Of a stretch of DNA of 64,000 bases, positions 24,001 through 30,000 are shown one piece after another. A program made the position numbers. Location of the stretch: positions 15,210 through 79,209 of the forward strand of contig JBBIOD010000005.1 in the NCBI GenBank assembly GCA_037443545.1. The letters are read 5' to 3'. How positions within the stretch are numbered: position 1 is the first letter of the stretch; each line of letters opens with the position of its first letter. The stretch is from Ignavibacteriales bacterium (GTDB lineage Bacteria > Bacteroidota > Ignavibacteria > UBA10030 > BY39).

Positions 24001-27000
24001 ATCGCAATTCCTTCCCCCTCGTATGCTCCATTTTTATGATTACCTCCGGAAACAACTTCCACAACCGGTAGGTGATAAGTTTTAGCAAAATCGTGGTCTC
24101 GCTGGTCGTGACCGGGCACAGCCATTATGGCACCCGTTCCGTAGGAGATCAAAACATAATCGGCAATCCAGATAGGAATTTCTTTTTTTGTAGCTGGGTT
24201 AAAAGCACAACCACCTGTAAATACTCCCGTTTTATTTTTTTCTAACGCTGTCCGTTCAATGTCACTCTTTAGTGCTGCTTGGTTACGGTATTCTTCAACA
24301 TCTTCGAAATATTCTGTTGTAGTAATTTTTTCGACTAATTTATGTTCGGGAGCTAGCACTAAATAAGTAGCTCCAAAAAGTGTATCGGGACGAGTTGTAA
24401 AAACACGGATCGTTTCCTGTGTATTCTTGATTTTAAATTCGATTTCAGCCCCTTCCGATTTTCCTATCCAGTTGCGCTGCATCTCTTTGATACTTTGGGG
24501 CCAATCTAGTTCATCCAAGTCCTTTTCGAGACGATCGGCGTAGGCAGTAATACGCAGCATCCATTGGCGCATCATTTTCCGTTCAACTTTGTATCCTTTT
24601 TCGACCCATTCGTCAACTTCCTCATTAGCTAAGACAGTTCCTAATTCGCCGCACCAATTCACCGGCATTTCAGCAAGGTAAGCAAGCCGATGTTTCGCGA
24701 TATATTCGTACTTTTCCTTAGAGCTCAATCCTTCGGGTATCGGTAGTTCAGAAATAGGGCGGGCTTTACCGGTTTTCTTATCAAACCACGAATCATATAT
24801 TTTCAAAAATATCCATTGCGTCCACTTGTAATATTTGGGATCGGTGGTATTAATTTCACGCGACCAATCGTAAGACAAACCCAACATTTTGATCTGTCGT
24901 TTGAATGTAGAGATATTTTGTTGTGTAGTAGTACTCGGATGGATACCTGTTTGCATTGCGTATCTTTCAGCCGGTAATCCAAAAGCATCCCACCCCATCG
25001 GATGGAGTACATTAAATCCGTTCATCCGTTTGTAGCGAGAAATAATGTCAGTTGCGGTATAACCTTCAGGATGCCCGACGTGTAAACCGCTTCCGGATGG
25101 ATACGGAAACATATCAAGAATATAATATTTTGGCTTATCGAAATCTTCTACAACTTTAAAAGTATTGTTTTCGTCCCAATATTGTTGCCACTTCTTTTCT
25201 ATTTTATCAAAAGGATAACCCATATACTACTTTCCCGCCTATTAAAGTCATAACGATTTCAGTATTTAATATTTTGTTCGTAGGTATAGTCATAATGTCT
25301 TGGGAGAGAATTGTTAAATCGGCATACTTATCCACTTCGATTGTACCTTTTTCCTTTTCTTTAAACGCGGCATACGCAGCCCAGGTTGTATACGCCTTCA
25401 ATGCTTCTTCCCGCGACATACATTCTTCTGGATACCATCCTCCTTCAGGTTTACCGTCTTGATCGGTTCGAGTTACTGCCGCATACAATCCCCAGAGAGG
25501 TTGCATAATGTCGTTTGGGAAATCGGAACCAGCCGGAATGATAGAGCCAGATTTTATCAAAGATTTCCAAGCATAAGCTCCTTTAACTCTATCGGTTCCT
25601 AATCTTGCTTCTGCCCAATCCATATCCGATGTAGAGTGAATTGGCTGCATACTTGGCAATACATTTAATTTTTTGAATCGAGAAATATCTTCCGGTAAAA
25701 GAACCTGTGCATGTTCAATTCTAAAACGAAAATCATTTTTATTCTCAAATCCAAGTATTTTTTCGTACATGTTCAACACAACATGATTGGCACGGTCGCC
25801 GATAGCATGAATGCAAACCTGAAAATTCTTTTTGATGGCTTGACGAGTTACTGCCTCCATCGTAGAATCATCGAGTAAAGTAAGTCCACGGTTTCCCGGA
25901 TCGTCAGAATAATTTTCAACAAGAGCAGCGCCGCGTGAGCCGAGAGCACCATCAGCGTACATCTTTACAGCGCGGATTGTTAACATACCGTTGCCATAAT
26001 TCAGCAAGGGTCCGCGTTCACTGAATTCATTCCAGGTCTGGCTTGGTGCATCTACTGCACCGTAAATTCTGATTTTGAGTTTCTGTTCATCTGCTAATTT
26101 TTTGTACACACGAATCGTTTGCGAGTTCAGCCCCATATCGTGTACTTCGGTTAAACCTGCTTTCATACATTCGTCAGCAGCAAGTAAAATACATCGTTCA
26201 ACTTCAGCATCGGTGGGAGGAGGAACAATTTTTTCGATTAACTCGGTTGCCTTGTCTATAAACACACCAGTAAGATTGCCGGAATTATCACGAATTATTT
26301 TACCACCGGGAGGATCAATTGTTGCCGGTGTTATCCCTGCCATTTCAAGCGCTTTTGAATTCACCCAGATTGCATGTCCATCGATACGCCCTAAAATTAC
26401 AGGATTATCGGGAACGGCTGCATCTAATAGTTCTTTTGTCGGAAATTTTTTACCGTCCCAAAGAGTTTGGTCCCATCCCCTGCCGTAAATCCACTCACCT
26501 GTAGGAATTGTTTTCGACTTTTCCATTACCTTCTCGGCAATCTCGTCTGCGGATGTTATTCCAGCAAGCATCAACGAATTCAGCATCTGTCCAAAACCGA
26601 ACATGTGTGCGTGTGCGTCGATAAGTCCAGGAATAACTACATTCCCTTTTAAATCGACACTCTCCGCAACTTCGAAAAGGTCTTTTAACTCACTCGATTT
26701 TCCAACAGCAACTATGTACCCATCTTTGATTGCGATTGCCTCAGCAAGAGGGTTGTTGTTATCGAGAGTATAAATTTTACCATTGATTAGTAAGAGATCA
26801 GCTTTCTTCTCCATAATGAATATCAAATATATTATCAATAAAAGTGTAGCAGCAACTAAAAAATATAAAGCAATCTTATATCTCATAATTCCGAAAAGGT
26901 GTCTTAATTTTGACTTAATATAAAAAGATTAGTCAAGAAAAGCTAACGATTTTCTTCTTTCTTGATACAATGCCCAACCCACTTTTGTATAAAGGTGGAA

Positions 27001-30000
27001 TAGTAAACTTCAAACATGCGTTTACATTTTTATTGCCGATAGGCTGAAGCAAACCTGTCTCATAAATCGCACGAACTGCGTTAGCTCCTGAAGGTGTCAA
27101 ACCGTTAAACATAGCGTAAAGTTCTTCTCTGTTTATGAAGGTTTTGGTAAGTCCTTTGAATTGATCGAAATGTTTTTTTAAGTGTGGAAATTCAGAGTAT
27201 AGAAAAGTATCGCATCTATATTTAGATACTTCTACGAAAGCTTCTTTGATTGCTTCGACACTCACAATATTCTGAGAATATTTCTCATATACTCCATCGT
27301 TGGTGTGAGATGAAAGTGATTTATTAATTTCTCTTTGTTTTATTACAGCTTGATTGCCTAAGTGAATAAATTCACGCGGATACAGCATTCCTAAACCATC
27401 TATCATACGTTTCATTATCCATTTATGACTTGAAATTGTATTAGACGTCTGACCATTTGTATTTAAATTAAATATCAAATGAAATACTTTTTTTATAAGC
27501 TCATCACTAGCTGAAATAACCCTGGCGATGTCTAAATTTTCATGCAATATTTTTTCACAGTATGCCCTGACTACCCGGTCATGTACAGCGCGGGCGACTA
27601 ATAATTTTAATATCAAATTATCAGACCACTTCAATTCTACCGTAAAAGAAACGAGATGTGATTTATTGACAATTTGCAGTTCTTTGAAAATGTCAGTCCG
27701 TAAAAATACTTTAAGATTTATATTCGAAAATCTGTTGCTATATTCGATTAATAATTGTATCAGAGCAGTTATTGCCTTTTCTCTCCGTTCAAGATTATCT
27801 AAATATAAAAGATCTATTTGGTCGGCTAAAATCCATACGAGGCAATTTGTTTCTTTCAGAACTTTGTCAACCAGATCGAGAAAAGAAATTATATTTATAG
27901 TAGTTTTACCTTTGTATGTTTTAGTGGTTGATAAATTCGATTGATGCAGAAAAAGTAATTCTTTTATTTTTCTATTCATACGACCGATGTAATCGTCGTG
28001 CCTATATAAACCGATTTCAGAGAGGAGGCTTATGATTGCGTTGTAATTAGATTTGAGAGAATCGGACTTACTTGAGTCAACACGTGAACGCATTCTTGGG
28101 CAGGTAGCTATAATGGAGGCAGCCTTTAGACCAAAATATAGTTGCCAGAAATATTTAAAGTCGTCGATTGTTTGAGGATTGATTTCTTGAATTTCAGAGT
28201 AACTTATATACTCGTCGCTGTGCAAGCCGTATGCAGGTATGCTATATATTTCCGAGAAAGAATTATGGAGGAGCTGGGTCAGCCGGAAGATGTCTTTCGA
28301 AAGGAGACGAAAAAAAGCGCTTTTACCTGAACCTTTTCCGCCCAATAACAATGTATGTCCTGGCTGTAAAGTCTGTTTGAATAAATCAGTCCCGATAAAG
28401 CAGTTTGATAGTTTATCGTCGGACTCGGCATCTACTTTTCCGAAAGATAAGTTCGATAGTACTTGATGGGTGTCCATTGTTCAAATTATTTTATTGCTTT
28501 TCGCAATCGAAATAAAGTCTCTTTAATATCTTCGGAAATAAGTTTTGTATCTGCCAACACGGGCATAAAATTCGTATCACCGTTCCATCGAGGAACTATG
28601 TGAAAATGAATATGATCATCAATACCTGCCCCTGCACTCCTGTACACATTAGAACCAATATTAAAACCATCAGGTTTCATGATCTCGGTTAGCGAAACCG
28701 ACATTCGTTTTAGGAAGTCAAAAATTTCCAAAGATTCTTCATTCGAGAAAGACTCCAAATTCCCTATGTGTCTGAAAGGTACAACCATCAAATGACCGCT
28801 GTTGTATGGATACAAATTCATAATTACATAACAATGGATGCCACGTGTAACTATCAAATTTTTATCGTCGTCATTTTCCTGAAATGCTTTACAGAGGATG
28901 CATTCTCTACTCAATTGCTCTGAAAACGATGCAATGTATTTTGAACGCCATGGAGAATACATCCTTTGCATAAAAAATATTATTCCTCCTCTTCAGTTTT
29001 ACTCTTTTCGTAATCAGCAATTATTTTATCCATAATTTCTCGTGGAACTTCTTCATAGTAGGAGAATTTTTGTTTATGGATACCCCGACCTTGAGTCATC
29101 GATCGGAGAGTTGTTGAATATCTGAAAAGTTCCTTCAAAGGTACAAGTGCTTTTATTACTTGATTATGTGAATGAGCCTCCATACCAAGAATTTTGCCTC
29201 TGCGGCTGGAAATATCGCCCATTACGTCACCCATATAATCTTCGGGAACAGTTACTTCGATTTCATAAATTGGCTCTAACAAAATGGGTTTTGCTTCTTT
29301 AAAACCTTTTTTGAAACCCATCCGGCCTGCGATTTTAAATGAATGTTCATCAGAATCAACCGAGTGCGCCGAACCGTAGAACAGAGTAACTTTTACGTCA
29401 ATAACTTTGCATCCGGCTACTACGCCTCCGGCCATCGCTTCTACGATACCTTTTTCGACAGCGGGTATAAAACGCCCCGGAACCACACCGCCGACGATTG
29501 CATCTACAAATTCGAAACCTTCGCCTCTTGGTTTAGGTTCAATTTTTAGAAATACATGTCCAAATTGTCCACGTCCACCGCTTTGCTTTTTGTGCTTGTA
29601 TTCAATTTCTTTACATACTCCCTTAATAGTTTCACGGTAAGGAAGTCTCGGTTCAACCAAGTCAACATCAACACCAAAACGGGCTTTTAATCTTTGTGCA
29701 ATAATTGTTAAATGTAACTCTCCTTGTCCGCTTACAACTGTTTGTCGCAATTCGGGATCGACTTTAACAATAAAAGTTAAATCTTCAGCGTGCAATGTAT
29801 GCAATCCGTTTGCGACTTTATCTTCATCACCTTTCGCTTTCGAAACTATTGCCATGCTTATAACTGGCTCGGGGAATATTATAGGAGGAATAGTAATTGG
29901 TGCGGATTTGCTGCTTAATGTGTTGTTTGTATGAGTGTCCTTGAGCTTAACTGCAGTTCCAATATCTCCGGCGAATAATTTTCCAGTTTCCTTCCGTTCT

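What the first reader, a model, noticed from the sequence alone, without database searches (positions are those of the whole stretch)
26933..28477. Lone, AT-rich P-loop NTPase inserted between HIT/EF-G2 and amidohydrolase/leuS, a candidate horizontally acquired defence or abortive-infection ATPase
The 514-aa protein has a clear Walker A (GGKGSGKS) and a Walker B-like hhhhDQxD motif. The remainder is helical and matches no housekeeping family I recognise. It is not AAA+, ABC, RecA-like, a GTPase or a kinase by the motifs visible. Its nucleotide composition is noticeably more AT-rich than the flanking conserved genes, and it sits alone in a run of core genes. That is the typical footprint of a small acquired defence gene. 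Single-gene NTPase defences of similar size have been described, including STAND-like, KAP-like and Abi proteins.
Basis: partly seen in the sequence, partly recalled or inferred. Interest (0 to 1): 0.5.

Follow-up and report, generated by a model that had tools for sequence, protein, structure and literature searches.

The report
Inherited ORC/STAND-like ATPase, not recent import
The gene encodes a real ATP-binding switch protein of a catalogued but uncharacterised family (Sll1717 family, ORC/Cdc6-STAND type AAA+), but it has been inherited vertically with its housekeeping neighbours under purifying selection and was not recently imported as a defence gene.

Summary
The 514-aa ORF (26933-28477, minus strand) is real, and its Walker A and Walker B motifs are conserved. 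It is a clear member of NCBIfam NF047389, 'P-loop ATPase, Sll1717 family' (161 bits, cutoff 75). Its fold is ORC/Cdc6-STAND-like: a nucleotide-binding domain, a helical lid and a winged helix, with no nuclease, TIR or Sir2 effector.

GC3 is at the window median (z = -0.08) and codon usage is typical. Orthologs occupy the same EF-G2-HIT-ATPase position down to 62% identity. Synonymous divergence matches the flanking genes, and dN/dS is 0.10-0.13.

Full-length orthologs at 41-50% identity occur across Ignavibacteria. Each sub-clade keeps its own stable housekeeping neighbourhood, and none lies in a defence island.

The wider family (23-35% identity) does occur on prophages and on a plasmid. It is remotely related to a PADLOC candidate (PDC-M28C) and to the experimentally validated single-gene E. 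coli system DS-41. An immune role is therefore possible, but only by distant analogy.

One large sister clade pairs the ATPase with a divergently transcribed ~240-aa membrane protein of unknown function. That partner is absent from this window.

Verdict: an ordinary new member of a known, uncharacterised family, of low to moderate interest.

The parts
26933..28477 (-). CDS of the 514-aa Sll1717-family ORC/Cdc6-STAND-like AAA+ ATPase (includes the stop codon)
   Evidence: ORF list. NCBIfam NF047389 at 161.5 bits against a cutoff of 75, covering aa 12-479. Pfam PF24389 at 29.6 bits against a cutoff of 27. The N-terminus aligns from residue 1 with 43 orthologs.
27629..28477 (-). Nucleotide-binding domain, about aa 1-283. 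It includes a conserved N-terminal FGxVDAExD...CFIGT lead-in and a large helical insertion plus a disordered loop (aa ~104-195) between strands beta2 and beta3.
28319..28342 (-). Walker A / P-loop, GGKGSGKS (aa 46-53). G46, K48, G49, G51, K52 and S53 are conserved family-wide.
   Evidence: Translation. Invariant in 44 of 44 clade sequences. K48, G49, G51 and K52 are each 112 of 112 in distant relatives.
27812..27835 (-). Walker B, WILADQID (aa 215-222). D219 and D222 are invariant. Position 220, where canonical AAA+ proteins have the catalytic Glu, is Q here and R or K in nearly all other family members.
   Evidence: Translation. Column frequencies for 10 clade and 112 distant sequences.
27692..27700 (-). 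R260-T-D262 at the end of strand beta4 (the sensor-1 position). R260 and D262 are invariant family-wide, which gives a STAND-like sensor-1 arginine.
   Evidence: Translation. DSSP strand at 253-259. 112 of 112 conservation for both residues.
27158..27628 (-). Helical lid / ARC1-like region (about aa 284-440). It carries the conserved DGxGxxYPRExIHLxN (360-375), S418, YRCD (420-423) and EFPHLxxHF (429-437) motifs.
26963..27157 (-). C-terminal winged-helix-like domain (about aa 441-505)
28486..28971 (-). Context: HIT-family hydrolase gene. Its stop codon is 8 nt upstream of the ATPase start, on the same strand.
   Evidence: Pfam HIT. The intergenic sequence. The EF-G2-HIT adjacency is kept in about 45 Ignavibacteria and relatives.
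28980..31076 (-). Context: EF-G2-type elongation-factor paralog. It was used as the anchor for the synteny survey.
   Evidence: Pfam domains in orthologous loci. Genome scan.
25207..26886 (-). Context: Amidohydro_3 amidohydrolase, 46 nt downstream on the same strand. It overlaps leuS (22701-25223).
   Evidence: Pfam at 400 bits. ORF list.

Best explanation
The gene encodes a chromosomally fixed, vertically inherited member of the Sll1717 family of P-loop ATPases. Its architecture is a minimal ORC/Cdc6-STAND-type AAA+ module: a nucleotide-binding domain, a helical lid and a winged helix. It has no repeat-type sensor and no enzymatic effector.

Shown:
- family membership
- the fold
- retention of every family-invariant residue
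- synteny, synonymous divergence and dN/dS equal to those of the flanking core genes
- orthologs across Ignavibacteria in clade-stable housekeeping neighbourhoods

Inferred mechanism:
- The protein acts as an ATP-gated conformational or oligomerisation switch and not as a motor. The canonical Walker-B catalytic Glu is replaced family-wide by R, K or Q, so hydrolysis is probably slow or partner-stimulated.
- The invariant sensor-1 Arg (R260) and the lid P367-R368 would read the nucleotide state.
- The winged helix either locks the ADP state, as in STAND proteins, or contacts DNA, as in Orc1/Cdc6.
- With no effector domain, output must go through self-assembly or a separate partner. In a large sister clade the likely partner is a divergently encoded ~240-aa membrane protein.

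Biological role (inferred, unresolved):
- About 45%: a lineage-fixed cellular or regulatory role derived from a mobile-element-borne ancestor.
- About 35%: a retained sentinel (immune) role like its distant relative DS-41.
- About 20%: something else.

In neither of the first two cases is it a recent acquisition.
For: Family and fold:
- NF047389 at 161.5 bits against a cutoff of 75. All 44 clade members and all 30 distant representatives tested hit the same model.
- PF24389 passes its cutoff.
- The model has pLDDT 80.4 and pTM 0.79.
- Foldseek top hits are archaeal Cdc6/Orc1, then ORC subunits, BrxC, RdrA and CED-4.

Motifs:
- G-x-K-G-x-G-K-[ST], W215, D219, D222, R260, D262, H274, P367-R368 and E429 are conserved across 112 distant relatives and retained in the window protein. 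No Glu follows D219 in any of the 122 sequences compared.

Vertical inheritance:
- The EF-G2-HIT-ATPase order is the same in L151 (93% aa identity), L001 (86%), and L002, L003, L091 and L092 (61-64%).
- ATPase identities of 86% and 62% track the amidohydrolase (86% and 65%), HIT (91% and 74%) and EF-G2 (95% and 78%).
- ATPase dS is 0.265 and 0.50, against neighbours at 0.20-0.44 and 0.28-0.71. ATPase dN/dS is 0.127 and 0.103, against neighbours at 0.045-0.23.
- GC3 z = -0.08 and codon-usage distance z = -0.32.

Clade structure:
- 120 of the 120 best homologs are full-length, 41-93% identical, and from Ignavibacteria or 'Bacteroidota' MAGs.
- Scores drop sharply from 492 to 292 bits to the rest of the family.
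- On a neighbour-joining tree, context type is clade-coherent.
- The neighbours are ProRS and DnaE, a histidine kinase and response regulator, OmpA, ThiI, glycogen synthase and an acyl-CoA ligase.
Against: - No experiment exists on any member of NF047389, and no paper mentions Sll1717.
- I could not measure what fraction of Ignavibacteria genomes carry the gene, so 'lineage-fixed' rests on clade-coherent synteny and not on a presence/absence census.
- The neighbour-joining tree has no support values.
- The mechanism (slow hydrolysis, oligomerisation, role of the winged helix) is inferred from motifs and from the behaviour of related folds. It has not been tested.
- The mobile-element and defence associations of the wider family leave an immune role open.
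- The tight 8-nt spacing behind HIT suggests co-transcription with housekeeping genes. That is unusual for either proposed role and is unexplained.
Confidence: 0.6

Rival explanations
1. One reading: a recently and horizontally acquired single-gene defence or abortive-infection ATPase, dropped into a run of core genes.
For: - It is a lone gene of unknown function among core genes.
- Its GC is lower than that of the two downstream genes.
- It has a partial PADLOC PDC-M28C hit at E = 3.4e-15.
- It hits PHROGs of unknown function.
- Distant relatives occur on prophages and on a plasmid.
Against: - GC3 and codon usage are typical of the window.
- The gene sits at the same locus in relatives down to 62% identity. 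It has the same dS as its flanks and dN/dS of 0.10-0.13.
- No integrase, transposase, tRNA-type junction or defence gene appears in any Ignavibacteria-clade locus.
- No close relative was found in phage records or viral contigs.
- The closest non-Ignavibacteria relative is only 36% identical.
Confidence: 0.04
2. A vertically retained immune sentinel. The gene is an anciently acquired single-protein anti-phage STAND-like sensor, analogous to E. coli DS-41, that Ignavibacteria have kept as a core innate-immunity gene. It assembles on sensing a phage cue and causes abortive infection, acting through a membrane partner where one is present.
For: - DS-41 is a single 502-aa gene validated against BASEL phages (PMC13092281).
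- DS-41 shares collinear motifs with the family HMM (23.5 bits, E = 1.2e-9 for one comparison).
- 27 of 44 clade members weakly hit NCBIfam DS41_1_antiphage.
- All 30 distant representatives hit PADLOC PDC-M28C.
- Relatives occupy prophage accessory positions.
- The fold resembles Avs, RdrA, BrxC and NLR proteins.
- About 25 sister-clade loci carry an adjacent conserved multi-pass membrane protein that could be a pore-type effector.
Against: - The window protein itself does not hit the DS-41 model. Pairwise BLAST and hhalign to DS-41 are not significant. DS-41 also lacks the family's invariant sensor-1 Arg (alignment).
- About 70 invariant columns at ~45% identity, clade-stable housekeeping synteny and a complete absence of defence-island neighbours are atypical for immune genes.
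- The membrane partner is transcribed divergently and not as an operon. It is missing from the window, and no member of its family comes from the window-clade assemblies.
- No effector domain is present.
Confidence: 0.3
3. An ATP-dependent DNA-binding regulator or nucleoid factor. The winged helix binds DNA as in Orc1/Cdc6 or in MalT-type STAND regulators. In the sister clade the protein would control the divergently transcribed membrane-protein gene. In the window's clade it was re-wired behind HIT.
For: - Archaeal Cdc6/Orc1-DNA complexes are the top Foldseek hits.
- The divergent gene pair, with a 220-330 nt intergenic region, is conserved at 36-60% partner identity in about 25 loci.
- Conservation and vertical inheritance are typical of cellular genes.
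Against: - Neither DNA binding nor operator motifs were tested.
- Winged-helix domains in STAND proteins often do not bind DNA.
- Several clades, including the window's, lack the partner.
- TM-scores to Orc1/Cdc6 are low (0.3-0.45) because the domain orientations differ.
Confidence: 0.2

Closest known systems
NCBIfam NF047389, 'P-loop ATPase, Sll1717 family' (named after Synechocystis Sll1717; uncharacterised)
   Same: The match is full-length and more than twice the curated cutoff. The length class is the same (~480-530 aa). All family-invariant residues are retained.
   Different: The Ignavibacteria clade is a tight branch, well separated from the rest of the family (492 to 292 bits). It is chromosomal and vertically inherited, whereas other members occur on prophages and plasmids. 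The window's sub-clade has Q instead of R or K after the Walker B Asp.
Archaeal Orc1/Cdc6 and eukaryotic ORC/Cdc6 initiators (Pfam PF24389 'ORC-CDC6-like')
   Different: Sequence identity is only 10-17%. The Walker-B Glu is missing and the sensor-1 residue is an Arg. A much larger lid region carries family-specific motifs. Nothing links the gene to replication origins, and bacteria initiate replication with DnaA.
STAND NTPases (NB-ARC/NACHT proteins: Apaf-1, plant NLRs, bacterial Avs, MalT)
   Same: The C-terminal half best matches the NB-ARC ARC1 and ARC2 modules. An invariant Arg sits at the end of the sensor-1 strand. The inferred chemistry is switch-like and not motor-like.
   Different: It has no repeat sensor (TPR, LRR or WD40) and no N-terminal effector. 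The Walker B is D-[RKQ]-h-D instead of hhhhDD/E. At 514 aa it is far smaller than typical STAND proteins.
DS-41 ('AAA2', WP_033812887.1), a single-gene anti-phage system from E. coli ECOR validated in the DefensePredictor study (PMC13092281)
   Same: It is a single stand-alone gene of about 500 aa. Its N-terminal AE motif, Walker A, 'DKLDE' Walker B and 'PRELI' lid motif are collinear with the family. Its NCBIfam model weakly hits most family members.
   Different: The homology is remote: 23.5 bits to the family HMM, and not significant pairwise. The window protein does not reach the DS-41 model at all. DS-41 lacks the invariant R-x-D sensor-1 motif. DS-41 is strain-variable in E. coli, whereas this gene is lineage-conserved.
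PADLOC candidate PDC-M28, gene C
   Same: There is a partial profile match (aa 200-385, E = 3.4e-15). All 30 distant family representatives also match it.
   Different: The match is weak and partial. From its naming, PDC-M28 is a multi-gene candidate with genes A to C (my knowledge of PADLOC naming, not tested here). The neighbours here are EF-G2, HIT, an amidohydrolase and LeuS.
BrxC/PglY N-terminal ATPase of BREX
   Different: Identity is 12%. BrxC is more than 1,200 aa long and works inside a six-gene BREX operon. No BREX genes occur here.

Membership tests
NCBIfam NF047389, Sll1717-family P-loop ATPase | Whole-protein HMM score at or above the curated cutoff (75 bits), with near full-length coverage | tested here: met
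   161.5 bits, E = 3.7e-47, aa 12-479 against profile positions 1-417 of 454
NCBIfam NF047389, Sll1717-family P-loop ATPase | Retention of the residues that are invariant across the family (GxKGxGK[ST], W-hhh-D-x-h-D, R-x-D, P-R, E) | tested here: met
   All are present in the window protein. The columns are invariant or nearly so in 112 distant representatives.
Pfam PF24389, ORC-CDC6-like | Score at or above the gathering threshold (27 bits) | tested here: met
   29.6 bits over aa 19-247, which is marginal. The same Pfam family is precomputed on many orthologs.
AAA+ ORC/Cdc6 initiator clade | AAA+ alpha/beta core, helical lid and C-terminal winged helix | tested here: met
AAA+ ORC/Cdc6 initiator clade | Canonical Walker B hhhhDE with a catalytic Glu | tested here: not met
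   Position 220 is Q. It is R or K in nearly all the others and never E among the 122 sequences compared.
AAA+ ORC/Cdc6 initiator clade | Association with replication origins, or binding to origin DNA | not testable with these tools
   No origin features were examined. The cumulative GC skew shows no inflection at the locus.
STAND NTPases | Conserved Arg at the end of the sensor-1 strand | tested here: met
   R260 directly follows strand 253-259 and is conserved in 112 of 112 distant representatives.
STAND NTPases | Helical (ARC1 / GxP-type) domain followed by a winged helix (ARC2) | tested here: met
STAND NTPases | C-terminal repeat sensor (TPR, WD40 or LRR) and/or an N-terminal effector domain | tested here: not met
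   The protein ends after the winged helix at aa ~505. There are no repeat or effector Pfam hits and no such fold.
DS-41 anti-phage protein (NCBIfam NF053860) | A match to the DS41_1_antiphage model | tested here: not met
   The window protein gives no hit at E <= 10. Only weak hits are seen for 27 of 44 clade members (best E = 2.2e-7). The family HMM against DS-41 scores 23.5 bits.
PADLOC PDC-M28 candidate system | A strong match to gene C, plus partner genes A and B in the neighbourhood | tested here: not met
   The match is partial (53.9 bits, aa 200-385). The neighbours are EF-G2, HIT, an amidohydrolase and LeuS. The A and B profiles were not scanned separately.
Recently acquired genomic-island or defence-island gene | Atypical composition or codon usage relative to the host genome | tested here: not met
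   GC z = -0.83, GC3 z = -0.08, codon-usage distance z = -0.32 among 46 window ORFs
Recently acquired genomic-island or defence-island gene | Presence/absence polymorphism at the locus among close relatives, with mobile or defence genes adjacent | tested here: not met
   The gene is present at the same position in all six relatives that have ATPase identity of 61% or more. dS equals that of the flanks. No mobile or defence neighbours were found.

The most novel reading that the evidence does not exclude
A family of minimal STAND/ORC-like ATPases that otherwise travels on prophages and plasmids, and that includes a validated anti-phage relative, was captured once by an ancestor of Ignavibacteria and domesticated into a conserved cellular function. 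It was originally coupled to a previously undescribed ~240-aa multi-pass membrane protein encoded divergently next to it. The window's sub-clade later lost or relocated that partner and placed the ATPase in an operon-like position behind EF-G2 and HIT, which hints at a link to translation or nucleotide stress.
Probability: 0.2. Interest if true: 0.5.

Novelty: new member of a known kind. Interest (0 to 1): 0.25.

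Why it matters
The main value is as a corrective. A lone, slightly AT-rich P-loop gene among core genes looks like an acquired defence gene, but silent-site composition, synteny and dS/dN analysis show it is an old resident.

A secondary value is that it documents a vertically inherited, highly conserved branch of an uncharacterised family (Sll1717/NF047389) whose other branches are carried on mobile elements and are remotely related to a validated anti-phage gene (DS-41). 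That makes the family a possible case study for how conflict-system ATPases become fixed in a lineage.

It also flags a conserved ATPase and membrane-protein pair that has no annotation in Pfam or PADLOC. None of this bears on a long-standing open question.

Tried and rejected
- Sequence search of PDB chains: no hit at E <= 10.
- Literature searches for 'Sll1717' and 'PDC-M28': nothing. 'ORC-CDC6-like' found only a BREX paper describing inactive STAND domains, which was not directly relevant.
- Promoter and terminator scans around the gene: counts at or below the shuffle expectation, so uninformative.
- Phage GenBank records (tblastn): no match. Viral contigs scanned with the Ignavibacteria-clade profile: none. 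Only the distant-family profile found viral relatives.
- Context look-ups for three distant representatives (P0124, P0131, P0133) returned mostly 1.5-5 kb contigs and added little, apart from WhiB and a faint transposase hit near P0131.
- Pairwise BLAST and hhalign against the DS-41 sequence were not significant beyond the P-loop. Only the family-wide HMM showed collinear remote homology.
- KAP NTPase, ABC, RecA-like, GTPase and kinase assignments were considered and rejected. No family library supports them, and the fold is AAA+.
- A C-terminal nuclease, TIR or Sir2 effector was considered and rejected. The C-terminal half is all-helical apart from a small winged-helix sheet, and it matches only lid and winged-helix modules.
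- A simple one-gene insertion between HIT and the amidohydrolase was considered and rejected. Outgroups lack the whole ATPase-amidohydrolase-LeuS block downstream of HIT.

Full report
**Observation**

The ORF at 26933-28477 (minus strand, 514 aa) exists as described. It has a Walker A, GGKGSGKS, at aa 46-53 and a Walker-B-like WILADQID at aa 215-222. It lies on the same strand as its neighbours and is tightly packed with them. EF-G2 is at 31076-28980 and HIT at 28971-28486. Only 8 nt separate the HIT stop from the ATPase start. An Amidohydro_3 gene follows 46 nt downstream, then leuS, which overlaps it. There is no paralog in the window and no transmembrane segment.

**Composition**

- Gene GC is 0.351, against a mean of 0.375 for 46 ORFs in the window (rank 10 of 46, z = -0.83).
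- GC3 is 0.327 (rank 24 of 46, z = -0.08).
- The RSCU-type distance to the rest of the window is below average (z = -0.32).

The contrast with the amidohydrolase and LeuS (GC 0.41) comes from codon positions 1 and 2, so it reflects amino-acid composition. Several other genes in the window have lower GC (0.314-0.323) and have ordinary annotations. There is no compositional signature of foreign origin.

**What the protein is**

- It clearly exceeds the curated cutoff of NCBIfam NF047389, 'P-loop ATPase, Sll1717 family' (161.5 bits against 75, aa 12-479).
- It marginally passes Pfam PF24389, ORC-CDC6-like (29.6 bits against 27).
- It has partial matches to the PADLOC candidate PDC-M28C (E = 3.4e-15) and to two PHROGs of unknown function.
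- No PDB chain is detectable by sequence.

An AlphaFold model built from a 44-sequence alignment is good (pLDDT 80.4, pTM 0.79).
- Foldseek against the PDB puts archaeal Cdc6/Orc1 first (2qby_B, E = 2.7e-6), followed by ORC subunits, BrxC, RdrA and CED-4.

**Motifs**

Across 44 clade members about 70 columns are invariant. Across 112 distant representatives the following are invariant or nearly so, and all are present in the window protein:
- G46-x-K48-G49-x-G51-K52-[ST]
- W215-hhh-D219-x-h-D222
- R260-x-D262, directly after strand beta4
- H274
- P367-R368
- E429

The residue after the Walker B Asp, which is the catalytic Glu in canonical AAA+ proteins, is R (84 of 112) or K in nearly all distant members (G or N in a few). 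It is K or Q in the Ignavibacteria clade and Q in the window protein, and it is never E. In canonical AAA+ proteins an E-to-Q substitution at this position traps ATP. I therefore infer a slowly hydrolysing, switch-like ATPase. The invariant Arg at the sensor-1 position is a STAND hallmark (Leipe, Koonin and Aravind 2004; cited from my own knowledge).

**Is it a recent acquisition? No.**

- The best 120 homologs are all full-length, 41-93% identical, and from Ignavibacteria or 'Bacteroidota' MAGs.
- The gene occupies the same EF-G2-HIT-ATPase position in GCA_030682385.1 (93% aa identity, L151), GCA_030017895.1 (86%, L001), GCA_964581995.1 (62%, L002) and three metagenomic contigs (61-64%).
- Its divergence tracks its neighbours. 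ATPase identities are 86% and 62%. The amidohydrolase is 86% and 65%, HIT 91% and 74%, and EF-G2 95% and 78%.
- Nei-Gojobori estimates against L151 and L001 give ATPase dS of 0.265 and 0.50, inside the neighbours' ranges of 0.20-0.44 and 0.28-0.71. ATPase dN/dS is 0.127 and 0.103, comparable with HIT (0.085, 0.111), LeuS (0.087, 0.088) and the amidohydrolase (0.170, 0.142).

**Wider synteny**

I used EF-G2 as an anchor and retrieved 80 loci from species-representative genomes. The EF-G2-HIT adjacency is kept in about 45 loci from Ignavibacteria, Melioribacter and some other lineages. None of them has the ATPase, the amidohydrolase or LeuS within 10 kb downstream. The HIT 3' junction is thus a rearrangement breakpoint. 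The block ATPase-amidohydrolase-LeuS sits there only in the window's clade. In L002, a 6-kb block of regulatory genes has additionally been inserted between the ATPase and the amidohydrolase.

ATPase orthologs at 41-50% identity sit elsewhere. Combining a metagenome scan with the contig look-ups gave about 50 loci with a near full-length copy. On a neighbour-joining tree, context type is clade-coherent:
- the HIT-type clade
- a clade flanked by a histidine kinase, a response regulator, ProRS and DnaE
- a clade flanked by OmpA, an Fe-S protein and ThiI
- a clade near glycogen synthase
- a large clade with a divergent membrane-protein neighbour

No integrase, transposase, restriction-modification system or known defence gene lies near any of them. 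In the exhaustive representative search the clade collapses to two or three 50%-identity clusters. Scores then fall from 492 to 292 bits for the rest of the family, which has 1,076 representatives at E <= 1e-3. This pattern fits one ancient establishment in the lineage followed by vertical descent with occasional rearrangement.

**The wider family is different**

- A 30%-identical full-length relative lies on a mobilizable Aeromicrobium plasmid, next to an AbiEi-domain gene and about 5 kb from a DNA methylase gene.
- Thirteen IMG/VR viral contigs encode relatives at 23-27% identity. These sit next to integrases, next to a CI-like repressor, or between the Mu F and Mu I head genes. All are typical prophage accessory positions.
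- All 30 distant representatives hit NF047389 and PADLOC PDC-M28C.
- 25 of 30 distant representatives and 27 of 44 clade members weakly hit NCBIfam NF053860, 'DS41_1_antiphage'.

DS-41 (working name 'AAA2', WP_033812887.1) is a single 502-aa gene from an E. coli ECOR strain. The DefensePredictor study showed that it protects against BASEL phages (PMC13092281). A family-wide HMM aligns the available 399 residues of DS-41 collinearly through the N-terminal AE motif, Walker A, 'DKLDE' Walker B, the beta4 region and a conserved Trp. A short second stretch that is not significant on its own covers the 'PRELI' motif. The score is 23.5 bits, E = 1.2e-9 for that single comparison.

Against this, pairwise BLAST and hhalign are not significant. 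The window protein does not hit the DS-41 model. DS-41 also lacks the R-x-D sensor motif. DS-41 is therefore a remote relative and not the same family.

**A conserved partner elsewhere**

In about 25 sister-clade loci, a 238-260-aa protein with 3-5 hydrophobic segments is encoded 220-330 nt upstream on the opposite strand. It has no Pfam or PADLOC match. Copies are 36-60% identical to one another. Its family is small (41 clusters), and none of its members carries a locus tag from the window-clade assemblies. It is absent from the 64-kb window. It could be an output partner or a regulated target of the ATPase. In the window's clade the ATPase works without it, or with a copy I could not see.

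**Mechanism (inferred)**

The protein is best described as a minimal ORC/Cdc6-STAND module: a nucleotide-binding domain, a lid and a winged helix. It would act as an ATP-gated switch.
- ATP binding uses K52, S53, D219 and D222.
- Hydrolysis would be slow or partner-triggered, because there is no Walker-B Glu.
- R260 and P367-R368 would sense the nucleotide state.
- The result would be a closed-to-open change or self-assembly.

With no effector domain, output must be assembly on DNA or on a partner protein. My estimates for the biological role are:
- about 45%: a lineage-fixed cellular or regulatory role
- about 35%: a retained sentinel role like DS-41
- about 20%: other

A recent horizontal acquisition is essentially excluded (about 4%).

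**Verdict**

The ORF, its motifs and its setting among core genes are real. The AT-richness is not significant, and 'not AAA+' is wrong.
The family has distant links to defence systems and mobile elements. This gene, however, is an old, vertically inherited resident without an effector domain.
- It is a new member of a known but uncharacterised family.
- Interest is low to moderate (0.25).

Noticed in passing
L004 7022-7762(-), L088 7061-7780(-), L089 6975-7715(-), L095-L098, L100, L104, L107, L108, L110-L112, L114, L128 and others (coordinates): A ~240-aa multi-pass membrane protein is encoded divergently, 220-330 nt upstream of the ATPase, in about 25 sister-clade loci. It has no Pfam or PADLOC match. 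Invariant residues include those in the G150, F152, W155-I156 and Y158-W159 stretch. The family comprises only 41 clusters at 90% identity. It is absent from the window and from window-clade assemblies.
   Followed up: partly
L002 9600-15341 (GCA_964581995.1): In the 62%-identity relative, a ~6-kb block has been inserted between the ATPase and the amidohydrolase. It carries a sigma-54 activator, two response regulators, a zinc-ribbon protein, a 539-aa hypothetical protein and a TPR protein. This shows that the ATPase's 3' junction is a site of gene gain.
   Followed up: no
window 28486-31076 and loci L006-L068: The EF-G2 paralog and the HIT-family hydrolase are adjacent, in the same order, in about 45 loci from Ignavibacteria, Melioribacter, Marinimicrobia and a few other lineages, at EF-G2 identities of 46-69%. 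This is a very old gene pair with no obvious functional rationale.
   Followed up: partly
window 48229-50511 (-), 39353-40264 (-), 58550-59296 (-), 15910-16767 (-): These are the lowest-GC genes of the window (0.314-0.323), lower than the flagged ATPase. They are a 760-aa protein with weak PIG-L and DUF7408 hits, an NHL-repeat protein, an MMR_HSR1-type GTPase and a DUF4905 protein. The 760-aa gene also has low GC3 (0.276).
   Followed up: partly
window 33266-33982 (-): A second small P-loop protein (238 aa, GRPAAGKS) with no Pfam hit. It is conserved at 94-95% and 79% identity in the syntenic relatives, with dN/dS of about 0.05.
   Followed up: no
L159 7965-9506 (IMG/VR UViG_650716006_000002): A distant Sll1717-family member is inserted between the Mu F-like and Mu I-like head-morphogenesis genes of a Mu-like prophage. 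This is a typical accessory-gene ('moron') position. Other viral copies sit beside integrases or beside a CI-like repressor.
   Followed up: partly
L150 7348-11369 (Aeromicrobium yanjiei plasmid p001, NZ_CP045736.1): A plasmid-borne family member (30% identity, 98% coverage) lies between an AbiEi antitoxin-domain gene and a 623-aa hypothetical gene. This may be a three-gene module on a MOBP mobilizable plasmid.
   Followed up: no
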